DNA of 64,000 nucleotides from Myxococcota bacterium (lineage in GTDB: Bacteria > Myxococcota_A > UBA9042 > PHBI01 > JAWLBL01), in the NCBI GenBank assembly GCA_041687695.1, contig JAWLBL010000006.1:160001-224000 (forward strand). The letters are read 5' to 3'. Positions 25,773-34,226 of the stretch are shown here, piece after piece. A program made the position numbers and the translations under genes. Numbering within the stretch: position 1 is the stretch's first letter; each line of letters starts with the position of its first letter. The notes beneath the pieces are model-generated. The model was not told the origin of the DNA. It made no database searches and was given only the letters and a program-made list of their open reading frames with translations.

Positions 25773-25927
25773 GCTCGCCTCCACGCGCCGCCCAACCGAC
25801 CCCGCGGTTCGCCGGGCCGGCCCCACACGCTACATTGCTCGTTGACGGCCCGCCACGTCCCGCGCCCCGCGCCCGCGACGTCCCGCTTCGGCCTCCCCCC
25901 AACGCCCCCACCCCGACGGAGCCCGCC

Positions 25928-27208
25928 ATGGCACGCCTCGCCGCGTCCTCGCGCGCCCTCGCGCTCGCGGTCGCCCTGCTCGGCTGCGACGAGCGCGACG
26001 CCTCGATCGTCGCCGTCGTCGCCGACACCCCCGACGTCAACGGCGACGACGCCGAGGGCGCCCCCGAGCCCCCCGGCGCTTCATGCGGCGACGCCCCCGG
26101 CGCCGGCTGCGCGGCCGGCCAGGTCTGCGACCGGCTGGGCTGCCAGGTCGGCGCGGCCGGCACCTGCCGCGACGTCCCCGACGTCTGCCCCGAGGTCGCG
26201 GACCCGGTCTGCGGCTGTGACGGCGTGACCTACGGCAACGACTGCCTGCGCCGCCAGGCGGGCGTCGGGCGGCACCATCCGGGCGCGTGCGGCGTGGCGG
26301 GCAGCGCCTGCGGCGATCTGGTCGGCGTCGCCTGTGGCGGCGGGCTGGTCTGCGATCTGACGAGCTGCGAGTCGCCCGCCCTGGGCGTGTGCAAGACGCG
26401 GCCCTGGACCTGCGCGGACGCGCCCCAGGCGCTGGTGTGCGGCTGCGACGGCGTCACCTACGGCAGCGAGTGCGACCGCCTGCGCGCGGGCGCGGCGCGA
26501 CGGCACGAGGGGCCCTGCGCCGACGGACCGTCGGTGTGCGGCACGCTCAGCAGCCCGCCCTGCCGCTCGGGCGAGGTCTGCGACGTGATGGGCTGCGCGC
26601 TGGGCGACCCCGGCGTGTGCGCGGCCCTGCCGACCAGCTGCAGCCCGCTGTACGCGCCGGTCTGCGGCTGCGACGGCGTGACGTACGCGAACGACTGCGA
26701 GCGCCTGCGGGCCGGGGTGCGGGCGGCCCACGCCGGGCCCTGCGGCGCGGCCGGGCTGCCCTGCGGTTCGCTGGGCGGCGGGGCGTGTGGTGACGGCCTG
26801 GTGTGTGACCAGGCGACCTGTGACGAGTCGGCGCCGGGGGTGTGCGTGGCCCTGCCCGACGTCTGCGGCCGCGAGGGCACCCCGGTCTGCGGGTGCGACG
26901 GCGTGACGTACGCGAACGACTGCGAGCGCCTCCGCGCCGGCGTGGCCCGAGCTTCCAAGGGCCCATGCGCCACGCCCGGCAAGGCCTGCGGTCCCATCCC
27001 CGACGGCCTGTGCCCCGCCGGGCAGGCCTGCGCCCGCGAAGGCTGCCTCCCGGGCGCGACCGGGACCTGCGTCGCCCAGGACGATCCCTGCCCCGACCTG
27101 GACGACCCGGTCTGCGGGTGCGACGGCGTGACCTACCCGAACCCCTGCGAGCTGCGCGCGGCCGGGGTCTCGCTCGACCACACCGGGCCGTGCGCCGCCG
27201 CCGACTGA
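25928..27208 (+). CDS. Lipoprotein with five Kazal-like repeats
   Basis: LLGC lipobox; five VCGCDGVTYx(N/S)xC...G.C units alternating with a second Cys module. Confidence 0.88.
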   Translation: MARLAASSRALALAVALLGCDERDASIVAVVADTPDVNGDDAEGAPEPPGASCGDAPGAGCAAGQVCDRLGCQVGAAGTCRDVPDVCPEVADPVCGCDGVTYGNDCLRRQAGVGRHHPGACGVAGSACGDLVGVACGGGLVCDLTSCESPALGVCKTRPWTCADAPQALVCGCDGVTYGSECDRLRAGAARRHEGPCADGPSVCGTLSSPPCRSGEVCDVMGCALGDPGVCAALPTSCSPLYAPVCGCDGVTYANDCERLRAGVRAAHAGPCGAAGLPCGSLGGGACGDGLVCDQATCDESAPGVCVALPDVCGREGTPVCGCDGVTYANDCERLRAGVARASKGPCATPGKACGPIPDGLCPAGQACAREGCLPGATGTCVAQDDPCPDLDDPVCGCDGVTYPNPCELRAAGVSLDHTGPCAAAD

Positions 27209-27342
27209 GCCGTCGGCTCGACCTTGCCCGCGCCGCGCGGCTCCACTAGCCTGCGGGGGCCCGCGGCGCGGCGGGCGGGGAGGGCGCCTTGGTGACGGAA
27301 CCGGTCAGGCTGATGCGGCGGCGGCAACCCGCCGAGGCGGCG

Positions 27343-28248
27343 GTGACCGACGCCAGCCTGGCCCTGTTCCGGCTGGGCGAGCAGTGCAACAACCGCTGTC
27401 CGATGTGCAGCAACTCCGGGCGCCCCGAGGCCTTCTTCCAGGGCGAGGCCGAGCTGCTCCGGCGGGCCGATCTCCTGGCCGATCGGGGCTTTCGGCGCGT
27501 GGTCCTGACCGGCGGCGAGCCGACCATCCACCCGGCCTTCTGGGCGGTGGTCCAGCGCCTGGGCGAGCGCGGCGTCGCCTGGGACATCAACACCCACGGC
27601 CGCAGCTTCGCCGACCCGGCCTTCACCGAGCGGGCCCTGCTCGGCGGCCTGCGCCGCGCCATCGTCTCGCTGCACTCGCACCGGCCCGAGGCGGCGCGCG
27701 TCATCTCGGGGTTCTCCCACGGCGCCTTCGAAGAGACGGTCGCCGGCCTCGACCAGCTGGTCCGCGCCGGGGCCTGGCTGATGATCAACTGCGTCCTGAC
27801 GACGCACAACCTGGACGTCGCCGACTACCTGCGGTTCTGCGCCGCGCGCTTCGGCAGCGAGCCGCGCTACAAGCTGGTCTTCCCGTCGACCGGCGGCAAG
27901 GGCGGCGACTGGGAGGGCATCCAGCTGCGCTTGAACGACGTGCGCGGGCCGGTGGCGCAGGCGCGCGCGATCGCCGCCGAGCTGGGCCTGCGCCTGGCCT
28001 TCGAGTCGCTGCCGAACTGCGTGCTGGACGACCCGTCCGCCGACGACACCAGCCGCTCGGGCTTCGGCGAGACCCACTACCTCGACGACCTCGACGGCGA
28101 GCGCCTGTACCCCATCCGGGCCATCGAGGCCGCCCTGTCGGCCTTCCCCGACTCGTGCCGCGGCTGCCGCGCGCTGCCCCGCTGCCCCGGGGTCGCCGAG
28201 AGTTACCTGCGCCGCCACGGCGCCTCCGAGCTGACCCCGTTCCGCTGA
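27343..28248 (+). CDS. Radical SAM protein, HxsC-like, with Cys-rich C-terminus
   Basis: CNNRCPMC, TGGEPT, VSLHSH, C-terminal CRGC...CPG...Y...G..EL.P; start uncertain (27289-27343). Confidence 0.85.
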   Translation: MTDASLALFRLGEQCNNRCPMCSNSGRPEAFFQGEAELLRRADLLADRGFRRVVLTGGEPTIHPAFWAVVQRLGERGVAWDINTHGRSFADPAFTERALLGGLRRAIVSLHSHRPEAARVISGFSHGAFEETVAGLDQLVRAGAWLMINCVLTTHNLDVADYLRFCAARFGSEPRYKLVFPSTGGKGGDWEGIQLRLNDVRGPVAQARAIAAELGLRLAFESLPNCVLDDPSADDTSRSGFGETHYLDDLDGERLYPIRAIEAALSAFPDSCRGCRALPRCPGVAESYLRRHGASELTPFR

Positions 28249-30450: not shown

Positions 30451-31764
30451 ATGCCTCGCCCACGCCTCCGCCTGATGGCCCTCACGGCCCTGGCCGCCGC
30501 GGCCCTGACCGCCTGTGGCGCGACCTGCCGCGAGATCGCGCGCGACCGCCAGGCCTTCCTGGCCCGCCGGGCCGCGCCCACGACCGCGCCCCACGCCCAG
30601 CTGATCATCCCCTTCCCGCTGGCCGACCGGCTGCTCACCCGTCGCGCCGCCGCCGTCCCACCCGCCTCGCTGGACCTCACCCCGCTCGCGCTGCTCGGCC
30701 TGCCGGTCGGCGTCGCCTCGGTCCGCCTCGCCTCCGTGCGCCTCGCCCCAGCACCCGACGGCCAGATCGGGTTCGAGCTGACCGTCTCGGTCGCCAGCGA
30801 CGCCCGCCCTCTGGCCCAGCTCGCCGCCGTCGCCCACGTCGCGCCGTCCTACGATCCCGTCAGCGGCGCCTTCCAGGTCCGCCTGCGCCCGGTCGACCTC
30901 CGCCGCCTCGAGCCGCGCCTGGTCGGCGACGGCCGCGACGCGGTGGCCGACTGGCTGCTCTCGATGCTCCCGCCGGCCGCGCGCCTGGTGGTCTCGCGCG
31001 GCCAGGTCGGCCAGCTGGCTTCGGATCTGTTGGCGTTCATCGCCTCCAACGCCTGGGATCTGCTGCGCGACGGCGCCTTGACCGACATCGGCCCGCTGAC
31101 CGAGCTGACCTTCGCCTTGCCCGGGCTCCCCGTCACCGGGCTGCGCGGCCGCACCTTGCAGCCCGACGCTGCGGCGCCCGCGCTGGCCCTGGACCTCACG
31201 ACCCCGCTGCCGGTCGCCACCGGCCTCGCCGCCCCGCCGCCACCGCTTCGCTCGCTCGACCTCCTCCAGGTCCGCATCGCCGGCGACACCCTGGCCGAGC
31301 TGGTCAACACCCGCATGGTCGCGGGCGAGCTGCCCGCGCGCTTCCGAGGCGACGGCCGCCCCGATCCCCAGGGCCTCTACGAGGCGGCGCTGGCCTGGGC
31401 GTCGGGCGCCGCCCGCCCGACCCGCCTCGTCCTGTGGCGCACGTCCGGCGAGTGCCTGCGCGCCACCCTGGCCGGCGCCCCCCGCGTCGCGCTCAGGGGC
31501 GACGCGCTGCAGGTCGCCGTCGAGGACGTCCGCCTCGAGGCCATCGAAGGCGCCACCCTGACCACGGCCTGGGCTTGGCTCCGCACCCTGTGGACCGACG
31601 CGCTGACCCTCGGTGGCGCCATCGCCGCCTCGGCCACCTTCGACCTGGGCGACGACCGCCTCGTGACCCGCGTCGTGGCGGCCGAGGTCACGTCCGAGGC
31701 CCTGTCCCTGTCGCTCGAGGTGCGCTCTGCGCCCTCGAACGTGACGCCCCCGCGCCCGCCGTGA
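30451..31764 (+). CDS. Hypothetical lipoprotein
   Basis: ALTAC lipobox; long GC3-biased ORF; beta-rich pattern. Confidence 0.65.
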   Translation: MPRPRLRLMALTALAAAALTACGATCREIARDRQAFLARRAAPTTAPHAQLIIPFPLADRLLTRRAAAVPPASLDLTPLALLGLPVGVASVRLASVRLAPAPDGQIGFELTVSVASDARPLAQLAAVAHVAPSYDPVSGAFQVRLRPVDLRRLEPRLVGDGRDAVADWLLSMLPPAARLVVSRGQVGQLASDLLAFIASNAWDLLRDGALTDIGPLTELTFALPGLPVTGLRGRTLQPDAAAPALALDLTTPLPVATGLAAPPPPLRSLDLLQVRIAGDTLAELVNTRMVAGELPARFRGDGRPDPQGLYEAALAWASGAARPTRLVLWRTSGECLRATLAGAPRVALRGDALQVAVEDVRLEAIEGATLTTAWAWLRTLWTDALTLGGAIAASATFDLGDDRLVTRVVAAEVTSEALSLSLEVRSAPSNVTPPRPP

Positions 31765-31935
31765 GATCACGGAAGGCGCGGTCGCCCCAACCCGGGGCCT
31801 CCGCGTCCCTTGCCCACCTTGCGCCCGGGCTTATCCCTCCCGAGGTCTCCCGCAACCCGCGCCCCTGGCCCCGCGCCCGGCCCTCGCCCGAGGGCCCCGG
31901 CCCGAGCCGCCCCGGCGTGGTGCCATGGAGGAGCG

Positions 31936-33510
31936 ATGCTCAGGCTGGAACAGGCGACCCGCCCGGACGATCTGGCGCGCTTCGAAGCGCGGGCGCGCGC
32001 CGTCGCCACGGCCCCGGACCCCCGCCCCGGCGCGACGGCGCCCTTCTGGTCCCTCGAGGCCAAGGTCGCCGGCGCCCCGGTGACCCTCGTCTTCGAGGAC
32101 GGCGTCCTCGCGGCGGCGACCCACGGCCGCTCGGGCGGCCCGCCCCGCGACGTCACCGAGCACGTCCGCGCCATCCGCTCGGCCCCCATTCGCCTCGCCA
32201 GCGATCGCCGCCCGGTCCCGCGGGTGCTGGTCGTGCACGCGACCGCGACCCTGCGGGCCACGGCCTTCGCTCGCCTCCGCCGGGGCCTGCAGAGCGCGGG
32301 CCGCGAAGGCGCCCGCACGATCGCCGAGGCGGCCGCCGAGGCGATGGCCCTGCGCGACTCGGCCCAGGTCGCCTGCTGGCCGCTCGACCTGGTCGCCCAC
32401 GACGTCGCCCCGGCGGGCGACGGCCTGGCGGGCCTGTCGCGCCAGCCGGAGGTGCGCGAGGCCCTGGTCGACTGGGGGTTCTGCGTCGTCGACGCCCTGG
32501 GCGAGGCGGACGACCTGCCCGGTGTGCTGGCGGTCATCGAGACCGTCACTGCCGTCCGGGACGAGCTCCCGTGGGAGCTCGACGGCGTCGTCATCAAGCG
32601 GGCGGCCCTGGACGCACGCGGCGCCGATCGGCCCGCGTCGGCCACCGCCGAGCCGGTCTCCTGGGCGGCCTCGGTCCCGGTCGAGCCGCGCCGCGCGCTG
32701 ACCCGGGTCGTCGATCTGGGCTGCGCGATCGATCGCTTCGGCGGCCTGCGGCTCGTGGCGACCCTGCGTCCCGTAGCGCCGGAAGGAGAGGCCGAGGTCA
32801 CCTGCGCCCTGGTGCCGGACGCGCGGTGCGCCCCCGAGCTGGCCGACCTGCGCGTCGGCGACCGCGTCCGCGTCGCCCCCGCCCCCGACGAGCCCGGCCT
32901 GCTGACCGTCGGCGAGCTGTCCCCGGCGAGCGAGTCGCTGCGCGGCGAGCCGTTCACCTGGCCGACCACCTGCCCCTCGTGCGGGCTCGAGCTGGCCGGC
33001 GCCCGCCGCCGCCGCTACTGCCCCAACCGCCATGGCTGCGCCGAGCAGGTCCACGCGCGCCTGCGGCACTTCGTCGCGGCCGCCGCCGACGGCGAGGCCG
33101 CCGAGCGCCTCGCGCGCTGGGTCGAGGGTGGCCTCGTCCACGCCCCCGAGGACCTCCTCCGGCTGACGACCGCCGACCTCGCCGACGCCGATCCGCTCGC
33201 CGCCCCGGGCCGCGACGGCCCGGCCCCCAACCTGTACCAGGCGCTGCGCGGCGCCCACCCGCTGCCGCTCGAGCGCCTCCTGTTCGCCCTCAGCGTCCCC
33301 GGCCTCGACCCGGCCGCCGCGCGCGCGCTCGCCGCCCACTTCGGCGACCTCGAGCGCCTCGCCTCCGCCGCCCCCGACGACCTGCAGGCCCGCGGCGACC
33401 TCGGCCCCGCCGGCGTGGCCGCCCTCCGGGCCTACCTCGACGAGCCGCGCAACCGCGCCACCCTGCGCGCGCTCGCCGAGCTCGGCCTCGACGCCCCTCA
33501 CGTCCCCTGA
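31936..33510 (+). CDS. Degenerate NAD+-dependent DNA ligase (LigA) paralog lacking domain Ia and BRCT
   Basis: Colinear with LigA: MLRLEQA (MLSLDN), EAKVAG (KxDG), DVTEHVRAI, RDELPWELDGVVIK, LRVGDRV, PTTCPSCG...C...C, LERLLFAL.VPG...AARALAAHFG; GGAGGAG RBS. Confidence 0.85.
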   Translation: MLRLEQATRPDDLARFEARARAVATAPDPRPGATAPFWSLEAKVAGAPVTLVFEDGVLAAATHGRSGGPPRDVTEHVRAIRSAPIRLASDRRPVPRVLVVHATATLRATAFARLRRGLQSAGREGARTIAEAAAEAMALRDSAQVACWPLDLVAHDVAPAGDGLAGLSRQPEVREALVDWGFCVVDALGEADDLPGVLAVIETVTAVRDELPWELDGVVIKRAALDARGADRPASATAEPVSWAASVPVEPRRALTRVVDLGCAIDRFGGLRLVATLRPVAPEGEAEVTCALVPDARCAPELADLRVGDRVRVAPAPDEPGLLTVGELSPASESLRGEPFTWPTTCPSCGLELAGARRRRYCPNRHGCAEQVHARLRHFVAAAADGEAAERLARWVEGGLVHAPEDLLRLTTADLADADPLAAPGRDGPAPNLYQALRGAHPLPLERLLFALSVPGLDPAAARALAAHFGDLERLASAAPDDLQARGDLGPAGVAALRAYLDEPRNRATLRALAELGLDAPHVP

Positions 33511-33533: not shown

Positions 33534-34226
33534 ATGCCCCGCGGCAGCAACATCGTCGAGCGCCCCGATCTGCGGGGCCGAACCCGCGTCTTCCGCAGCC
33601 GCGCCGCCGCCGGCGAGCTGCTGGCGGCCATGCTGCGCAGCTACCGCGAGGACGACGCGATCATCCTCACCGCCGACTGCGGCGGGGCCGCCGTCGCCGC
33701 GCCCATGGCCCGCGAGCTGAACCTGCCCGTCAGCGCCGCGCCCGCGGTGCCCGTCCGGGCCCCCTCCGACGGCGCGATCCTGGGCGCCGTCGCCTGGGAC
33801 GGGACCGTGCTGCTCGACGACGACGCGACGCGGCGCCAGCAGCTGCTCGAGTCGCAGCTCGAGCAGGTCGTCGCGCGCGCCAGGCAGGCCGCTGCCCAGG
33901 CACGCGCCGCGCTGGCGGGCGAGCACCCGATGCCCGACCTGATGCGCCGGACCGTCGTCCTGGTCGACGACGGCCTGGCCTCGGACGTCGTGCTGCGCGC
34001 CGCCCTGCAGGCCCTGGCCGCCGCCGAGGCCGCGCGGGTCCTGGTCGCGGTGCCGACCGCCCCCTCCGAGGCCGCCGCCCGCGTCGCCGAGCAGGCCTTC
34101 GCCGTCTACTGCCCGAACCTGCGCGACGGCGGCGCGTTCTCCGTCGCCGAAGCCTACGAAGAGTGGGCCGAGCTGACGCCGGAGGCGGCGCGAGAGCTCA
34201 TCGCGCCGTTCCTGCCGCCGGCCTGA
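33534..34226 (+). CDS. Phosphoribosyltransferase-fold protein with degenerate PRPP loop
   Basis: FRSRAAAGELLA, GAVAWDG, VVLVDDGLASDVV, VLVAVPT, FSVAEAY. Confidence 0.85.
   Translation: MPRGSNIVERPDLRGRTRVFRSRAAAGELLAAMLRSYREDDAIILTADCGGAAVAAPMARELNLPVSAAPAVPVRAPSDGAILGAVAWDGTVLLDDDATRRQQLLESQLEQVVARARQAAAQARAALAGEHPMPDLMRRTVVLVDDGLASDVVLRAALQALAAAEAARVLVAVPTAPSEAAARVAEQAFAVYCPNLRDGGAFSVAEAYEEWAELTPEAARELIAPFLPPA

What the first reader, a model, noticed from the sequence alone, without database searches (positions are those of the whole stretch)
31936..33510. Catalytically eroded LigA paralog with domain Ia cleanly removed (pseudo-ligase, possible DNA clamp)
Seen: a 524-aa uninterrupted ORF with GGAGGAG RBS and normal GC3 bias, colinear with NAD+-dependent ligase. 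It starts exactly at the MLSLDN-equivalent (MLRLEQA), so the NAD+-binding domain Ia is absent, and I found no remnant of it in the 170 bp upstream. It ends after the HhH region, with no BRCT. Motif I KxDG is KVAG, TRGDG is THGRSG, EVRGE is VVHAT, NPRN is TIAE, and the motif V AxKF is SVPV. Motif IV (DGVVIK), the motif I Lys, the OB fold, all four Zn cysteines and the HhH helices remain. Established: domain Ia, the motif I Asp, motif III Glu and motif V Lys are required for LigA activity, and E. coli LigB keeps Ia, so this is not LigB-like. Inference: a retained non-catalytic protein that could act as a nick/DNA-binding clamp, an AMP/nucleotide sensor, a dominant-negative regulator of LigA, or a decoy for phage or competitor ligase inhibitors.
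Basis: partly seen in the sequence, partly recalled or inferred. Interest (0 to 1): 0.8.

Follow-up and report, generated by a model that had tools for sequence, protein, structure and literature searches.

The report
Dead DNA ligase keeping adenine pocket
Beside its normal DNA ligase gene, this uncultured bacterium keeps an intact second gene whose protein has lost almost everything needed to join or grip DNA but still has the ligase fold and the adenine-holding pocket, so it looks like an enzyme turned into something else, though it has been seen in only one species.

Summary
Observation confirmed. The 524-aa ORF is a LigA core without domain Ia or BRCT; 30 of 58 near-invariant LigA positions are changed. 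An intact ligA lies elsewhere in the genome (27% identical). Three corrections. (1) It is probably not a duplicate of that ligA: it falls in a separate LigA clade that one other genome of the order carries intact (AU p 0.037). (2) It is not neutral decay: GC3 is 0.96, 49 of 54 core hydrophobic positions stay hydrophobic, four Zn cysteines remain, and eight private indels are all in frame. (3) A DNA clamp is unlikely: the OB-fold and three of four HhH DNA-contact motifs are eroded. What survives is the adenine side of the AMP pocket (E113, K115, K290 equivalents; Y225 as His), and those two lysines are the protein's only lysines. Best reading: a folded pseudo-ligase that binds an adenine nucleotide (0.4); main rival: a functionless remnant kept folded (0.3). 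The next gene, a phosphoribosyltransferase homologue, is also eroded. No orthologue was found outside this species, so dN/dS could not be computed. The scan noted a similar pseudo-LigA before, in a protist (unchecked).

The parts
31936..33510 (+). Pseudo-LigA ORF, 524 aa (P0001): NTase, OB, Zn finger, HhH; no domain Ia, no BRCT
31927..31930 (+). GGAG Shine-Dalgarno-like site, 5 nt before the ATG; it lies in what were the codons between the conserved His and Met of LigA
   Evidence: 87 of 1984 ATG genes have GGAG at this spacing
31765..31935 (+). 171-bp gap to the upstream gene; no codon periodicity; at most a faint vestige of the Ia-NTase linker (His at -4)
31936..32685 (+). Nucleotidyltransferase domain (about aa 1-250); catalytic acids and nick-binding residues lost
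32056..32064 (+). E41 and K43 (E. coli E113, K115): adenine N6 contact and motif I lysine, kept; next Asp is Ala45
32398..32400 (+). H155 (E. coli Y225, M. tuberculosis H236): adenine-stacking position
32581..32598 (+). Motif IV DGVVIK, D216-K221 (E. coli D285-K290); K221 is the second and last lysine of the protein
32689..32922 (+). OB fold (about aa 252-329); fold predicted, GRTG, LHN and RAGDVIP motifs eroded
32971..33039 (+). Cys4 zinc finger, C346/C349/C362/C368, all kept
33040..33486 (+). HhH domain; helices kept, hairpins 1-3 altered (DGEA, DPLA/PG with insertion, PGLD), hairpin 4 kept (DLGP)
33534..34226 (+). Downstream phosphoribosyltransferase-family gene (P0227, 230 aa), itself eroded; possibly co-transcribed

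Best explanation
History (inferred): the lineage held a second, full LigA of a clade other than its own; with the native ligA and three ATP-type ligases in place the copy was redundant, lost domain Ia and BRCT, came to start at the conserved internal Met, and lost the residues for NAD+ reaction, metal and ribose binding, nick recognition and DNA clamping. Shown by sequence: those losses, and selection for frame, codon pattern, hydrophobic core and zinc site. Inferred: the kept E41, K43, H155, K221 (with D216, R208) still hold an adenine ring, so the protein binds AMP or an adenylated ligand without chemistry, and the hinged NTase-OB-HhH body serves as a sensor or scaffold for an unknown partner.
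For: Of the seven essential residues in Table 1 of PMC5052709 (section 6 read), the adenine-contacting ones (E113, K290, Y225/His) and K115, G118 are kept, and the two acids D117 and E173 are lost. K43 and K221 are the only 2 lysines in 524 aa; 22 clade relatives have 5-16 in the same span; 2 of 11 majority-Lys columns are kept, and they are these two (Fisher p 0.018, or 0.055 if K314 is counted as a pocket residue). The stacking column is Tyr/Phe in 22 of 22 clade members and changed to His, which 22 of 179 LigAs use. Selection: 49 of 54 conserved hydrophobic positions stay hydrophobic, GC2 0.574, GC3 0.96, 4 of 4 Cys against neutral simulations; 8 private indels, all in frame. Redundancy: intact ligA, three ATP-ligase matches.
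Against: No orthologue, so no dN/dS and no conserved context. The pocket set is small and was examined after the pattern was seen; 29 of 69 conserved polar positions survive overall, so four survivors are only modestly unusual. The kept residues lie on core strands and may be kept for folding. The ribose and phosphate contacts are gone, so binding may be weak. The next gene is eroded as well, which fits general relaxation. No expression data.
Confidence: 0.4

Rival explanations
1. Functionless remnant under weak selection: a redundant acquired ligA that is still translated, so frameshifts and misfolding changes are purged (cost of misfolding, or coupling to the downstream gene), but the protein does nothing.
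For: Found in one species only; terminal branch 1.84-2.76 against medians of 0.38-0.39; drift to GC-rich-codon residues (FYMINK 3rd percentile, GC1 98th); the downstream PRTase homologue keeps 35 of 46 conserved positions against at least 39 in 119 homologues, and a second eroded copy of that subfamily lies elsewhere in the genome. With strong GC bias an open frame alone is not improbable (P 0.23-0.67 without indels).
Against: About two substitutions per site and 8 indels without a frameshift or large internal deletion; a useless 1.6-kb gene is expected to be deleted much sooner (general knowledge). A ribosome-binding site sits at the new start. Selective survival of the two pocket lysines.
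Confidence: 0.3
2. Non-catalytic DNA or nick clamp: NTase, OB and HhH still encircle DNA and protect nicks or block LigA.
For: All three clamp domains and the Zn brace are present; R267 (E. coli R333) and HhH4 are kept; net charge is less negative than in relatives (K+R 56, D+E 68 against about 64 and 83). A ligase-dead E. coli LigB still causes a growth phenotype (PMC5507437, passages).
Against: OB identity 0.35 to the clade against 0.76 within it; NPRN, GxLRQ, PRWA Arg, GRTG Thr, LHN and RAGDVIP are lost; HhH1 has a 3-residue deletion, HhH2 a 4-residue insertion, HhH3 has Asp for the hairpin Gly. The closed-clamp look of the model comes from an alignment of 126 ordinary LigAs and is no evidence.
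Confidence: 0.13
3. Protein-interaction role unrelated to the pocket: decoy for a phage ligase inhibitor, regulator of the host LigA, or partner of the eroded PRTase next door.
For: Fold under selection; two adjacent co-oriented eroded nucleotide-binding folds, 23 bp apart.
Against: 27% identity to the host LigA and a different clade make a poor mimic; no PADLOC match for it or 4 of 5 neighbours; no shared neighbourhood in relatives.
Confidence: 0.12
4. Still an enzyme: uses ATP, or seals or de-adenylates pre-adenylated nicks, for which domain Ia is dispensable.
For: Motif I Lys and motif IV are intact; PMC5052709 says Ia is not needed once adenylation has occurred.
Against: D117 and E173 (needed for adenylation and sealing), R136 and K314 (roles recalled) are invariant in 179 of 179 LigAs and all changed here; DNA contacts are eroded.
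Confidence: 0.05

Closest known systems
NAD+-dependent DNA ligase LigA (E. coli, PDB 2OWO; NCBIfam TIGR00575, PRK07956)
   Same: Colinear NTase-OB-Zn-HhH core; phmmer E 3e-38 to 2owo; model TM 0.71 to 2owo; motif I Lys, motif IV, Cys4.
   Different: No Ia, no BRCT; 30 of 58 near-invariant positions changed; scores about half of the family cut-offs or less.
Intact LigA clade holding the second LigA of G010 and Gemmatimonadetes-labelled proteins (P0005)
   Same: Nearest relatives, 33-37% identical; P0001 nests in the clade with SH 0.999 and SH-aLRT 99-100.
   Different: G010's copy has Ia, BRCT and all motifs; no shared gene neighbours.
E. coli LigB
   Same: Second NAD+-ligase-family gene beside ligA; lacks BRCT; a catalytically dead mutant still has effects (PMC5507437, passages).
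   Different: LigB is weakly active, has KxDG and lacks two Zn cysteines; P0001 has all four Cys, no Asp, and scores 39 bits against a 498 cut-off. That LigB keeps Ia is recalled.
Degenerate LigA copy in Plasmodiophora brassicae (earlier scan note e1-7154330, unchecked)
   Same: Second LigA copy that keeps the adenylated lysine and has lost other catalytic residues.
   Different: That note says DNA-binding parts are kept and the gene is transcribed; no sequence likeness was found by the findings index, so at most a parallel case.

Membership tests
LigA (active NAD+-dependent DNA ligase) | NTase-OB-Zn-HhH core fold | tested here: met
LigA (active NAD+-dependent DNA ligase) | N-terminal domain Ia | tested here: not met
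LigA (active NAD+-dependent DNA ligase) | Motif I KxDG | tested here: not met
   KVAG; Asp in 179 of 179 references
LigA (active NAD+-dependent DNA ligase) | Motif III Glu (E173) and motif V Lys (K314) | tested here: not met
   T103 and P248; each invariant in 179 of 179
LigA (active NAD+-dependent DNA ligase) | Adenine contacts E113, K290, Y225/His | tested here: met
   E41, K221, H155
LigA (active NAD+-dependent DNA ligase) | DNA-contact motifs of OB and HhH | tested here: not met
   residue roles partly recalled
LigA (active NAD+-dependent DNA ligase) | Family score above curated cut-off | tested here: not met
   195/369 and 180/444 bits
LigA (active NAD+-dependent DNA ligase) | Self-adenylation and nick sealing | not testable with these tools
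   needs purified protein
LigB (Enterobacteriaceae type) | PRK08097 score, KxDG present, two Zn Cys missing | tested here: not met
   39/498 bits; four Cys present; LigB features from PMC5507437
Pseudogene under neutral decay | Stops or frameshifts, flattened codon-position GC, random loss of core residues | tested here: not met
Conserved pseudoenzyme family | Orthologues with the same losses and dN/dS below 1 | tested here: inconclusive
   only one near-identical second record (2 of 524 aa differ); no other orthologue found

The most novel reading that the evidence does not exclude
A bacterial LigA has been repurposed as a non-catalytic adenylate reader: the motif I and IV lysines, Glu and His hold AMP, an adenylated second messenger or an adenylylated macromolecule, and it works with the equally eroded PRTase-fold protein next door as a two-part nucleotide-sensing module.
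Probability: 0.2. Interest if true: 0.8.

Novelty: new variant of a known kind. Interest (0 to 1): 0.47.

Why it matters
LigA is among the most conserved bacterial proteins and no natural catalytically dead bacterial form turned up in the paper searches made. A copy that has run about two substitutions per site, shed catalysis and DNA contacts but kept the adenine pocket would show that the ligase scaffold can be recycled as a nucleotide-binding module, and is a natural experiment on which LigA residues serve fold, cofactor or DNA. The weight is limited: one uncultured species, no expression data, no partner.

Tried and rejected
Orthologue searches found only ordinary LigAs at 37% identity or less: 63 non-self hits of 8000 candidates, best 149 non-self of 6511 hits, 13 metagenome loci of 256 stretches, 17 genome loci of 181, 61 relatives, 401 phylum genomes with a stricter first look, 0 of 7999 short candidates, 38 phage and 90 plasmid records, Atlas clusters of LigA only. 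Three hits that also begin at the MLS Met (P0135, P0181, P0197) keep the catalytic motifs in their first 130 residues, and P0197 has a 746-aa cluster mate: taken as start-call truncations. No sequencing run was listed, which says nothing on expression. Single-sequence AlphaFold gave pLDDT 40, uninformative. The test of P0001 as sister to G010's second LigA did not finish. Promoter and terminator scan: none. Split gene with Ia elsewhere: rejected. Synteny with G010's second ligA, or ligA/PRTase within 1.5 kb of 9 orthologous loci of the upstream gene: none. A genome-wide look for other eroded paralogues gave 37 candidate pairs; 6 were aligned and read by eye and mostly looked motif-intact, so erosion was not shown to be general. 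The primary mutagenesis papers PMC2516987 and PMID 15671015 were not held.

Full report
OBSERVATION. Window 31936-33510 (+) translates to 524 aa with no stop (P0001). Pfam finds the LigA adenylation domain (aa 1-223), OB (weak, E 0.022) and HhH, but no Ia or BRCT. NCBIfam LigA models match from position 69-74 to 568-576, at 195 and 180 bits against cut-offs of 369 and 444; LigB scores 39 against 498. 28 of 58 columns that are at least 95% conserved are kept, against 99% on average in 22 clade relatives. The gaps to the neighbouring genes are 171 and 23 bp, too short for Ia or BRCT, and the genome's only Ia match is in the intact ligA. A GGAG lies 5 nt before the ATG, a spacing seen in 87 of 1984 ATG genes; the longer GGAGGAG ends only 2 nt before it. 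The upstream frame is open for 57 codons without codon periodicity and has His four codons before the Met, as in LigA H-x-x-P-M; its Ia-profile score (1.0 bit) is reached by 30 of 800 controls. So a faint vestige is possible, and the 'clean' start may simply be the first conserved Met after Ia.

GENOME AND ORIGIN. The genome (G000, 7.97 Mb, 99% complete) has an intact 689-aa ligA on C7 with all motifs, 27% identical to P0001, and three ATP-ligase matches. 'Uncultured myxobacterium' is a label taken from an earlier scan note, not tested. In the order, 17 of 18 genomes have a LigA match and two have two: G000 and G010. G010's second copy is complete and intact. In a 128-row FastTree P0001 sits in a clade (SH 0.999) with that copy and Gemmatimonadetes-labelled LigAs, on a branch of 1.84 (median 0.38). 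With 40 of those rows under a mixture model the clade has 99-100% support and the branch is 2.76; forcing P0001 with the host-type ligA clade costs 20.9 log units, AU p 0.037. The program warns that a long, compositionally odd row is unsure, so I rate this as probable: a second, separately acquired or separately inherited ligA rather than a duplicate. Among 107 class genomes (101 with a match) only G000 has a near-full-length NTase match at a low score (85 bits); other low scores are partial stretches that I did not inspect.

NO ORTHOLOGUES. All searches returned ordinary LigAs at 37% identity or less (counts under Tried and rejected). The only kin is a second record of the same length that differs at 2 of 524 residues, L40V and L408F: this shows the gene is no assembly artefact, but without its DNA no dN/dS. 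G000 is the only held genome of its family, so absence of orthologues partly reflects sampling.

IS IT DECAYING? GC1/2/3 are 0.84/0.57/0.96 (98th, 82nd, 54th percentile of 3003 crudely called genes); AT-rich-codon residues are at the 3rd percentile. I evolved G010's second ligA neutrally in 16 settings. At the matching divergence (45-57% residues kept): with equilibrium GC 0.5-0.74 the chance of no stop is 0.027 or less and GC3 falls to 0.75-0.87; with 0.90-0.96 stops are often avoided (0.23-0.52), but GC2 rises to 0.64-0.70 and only 64-73% of hydrophobic sites stay hydrophobic. Observed: 49 of 54 (binomial p 7e-6 to 0.005 for 0.64-0.76, 0.04 for 0.81). Seven insertions and one deletion private to P0001 (shared by 0 or 1 of 22 relatives) are all in frame. 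Neutral decay is rejected; selection acts at least on frame and fold. The AlphaFold model (pLDDT 88; TM 0.71 to 2owo) rests on 126 ordinary LigAs in the alignment and shows compatibility only; without an alignment the model is uninformative.

WHAT IS KEPT. Table 1 of PMC5052709 (section 6 read whole) lists K115, D117, G118, E173, K290, Y225 (His in M. tuberculosis) and E113. P0001 keeps the three adenine contacts (E41, K221, H155), K43 and G46, and loses D117 and E173. D285 and R277 equivalents are kept; R136, N198/R200/N201, R208, R308 and K314 are lost (their roles are recalled, the primary papers were not held). K43 and K221 are the only lysines of the protein; of 11 columns where Lys is the commonest residue in the clade, these 2 survive (p 0.018-0.055). 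As an anecdote, a Lys-poor PLP enzyme of this genome also has a single Lys, in its cofactor motif (motif recalled). Against over-reading: 29 of 69 conserved polar positions survive overall, and structural versus polar retention differs only at p 0.08. The DNA-facing parts are not preserved: OB identity is 0.35 to the clade against 0.76 within it (NTase 0.32/0.60, Zn 0.39/0.59, HhH 0.34/0.53); GRTG is DRFG, LHN is VPD, RAGDVIP is lost, and HhH hairpins 1-3 carry a deletion, an insertion and a Gly-to-Asp change. PMC7470946 (passages) states that HhH provides essential DNA binding. Hence a clamp is unlikely.

CONTEXT. Upstream is a 437-aa gene without a Pfam match, with orthologues in 10 other order genomes and no ligA or PRTase within 1.5 kb in 9 loci tested. 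Downstream, 23 bp away on the same strand, is a PF00156 protein (P0227) at most 45% identical to 119 homologues; it keeps 35 of 46 conserved positions (lowest homologue 39), has no lysine (median 8), and lost K72, R123, R128 and the Gly after DDGLAS. The genome has three intact-looking PRTases of a related subfamily and one more eroded partial copy. Two eroded nucleotide-binding folds side by side may be partners or may mark a relaxed locus; this is open. PADLOC finds nothing for P0001 or P0227.

MECHANISM. Shown: ligase-dead by sequence, under selection for frame and fold, redundant as a ligase. Inferred, 0.4: adenine-nucleotide binding without chemistry, as sensor or scaffold. Rivals: functionless folded remnant 0.3; DNA clamp 0.13; protein decoy or partner role 0.12; residual enzyme 0.05.

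COMPARISON AND NOVELTY. It is a LigA homologue but fails the defining tests for an active LigA and for LigB (membership table; LigB features from passages of PMC5507437). Paper searches for a dead or Ia-less LigA homologue (listings only) gave none; most subscription papers and all supplements were outside what I saw. The scan's notes hold one parallel, a degenerate LigA in Plasmodiophora (unchecked; no sequence likeness). Verdict: real, a new variant of a known kind (LigA pseudoenzyme), single-species, function open; interest 0.47.

Noticed in passing
window 33534-34226 (+): PRTase-family gene (P0227) is itself eroded: 35 of 46 conserved positions, no lysine, PRPP-loop Gly replaced by Asp.
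   Followed up: partly
L072 (G000:C14:149271-149540, -): A second, partial and strongly eroded member of the same PRTase subfamily (VDEGLTRPD; 12 of 46 positions) elsewhere in the genome.
   Followed up: no
L004 / L033 (G010:C35, about 57.5-59.4 kb): A genome of the same order carries a second, fully intact LigA of the Gemmatimonadetes-like clade beside its order-type ligA.
   Followed up: partly
L001 (G000:C7:239574-241643, -): The order's own LigA is a divergent type on a long stem (0.77-1.27), apart from the LigA of several other families of the class; it lies next to the same gene in G000 and G010.
   Followed up: partly
window 30451-31764 (+): 437-aa gene with a lipoprotein-like N-terminus, no Pfam match, no lysine, with matches in 10 of 17 other order genomes.
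   Followed up: partly
window 27289-28248 (+): Radical SAM-like protein with weak PADLOC viperin matches (E 1e-9, N-terminal part only); probably a generic radical SAM hit.
   Followed up: no
window 25835-27208 (+): Secreted-looking protein with repeated PVCGCDGVTY Cys-rich units.
   Followed up: no
G026 (C187 and C138): A class relative with two full-length LigA NTase matches of about 203 and 183 bits.
   Followed up: no
G000:C5:218261-220072 and C10:76919-78088: Lys-poor paralogues of DnaK (8 versus 47 Lys) and of a PLP enzyme (1 versus 16) that appear to keep their motifs.
   Followed up: partly
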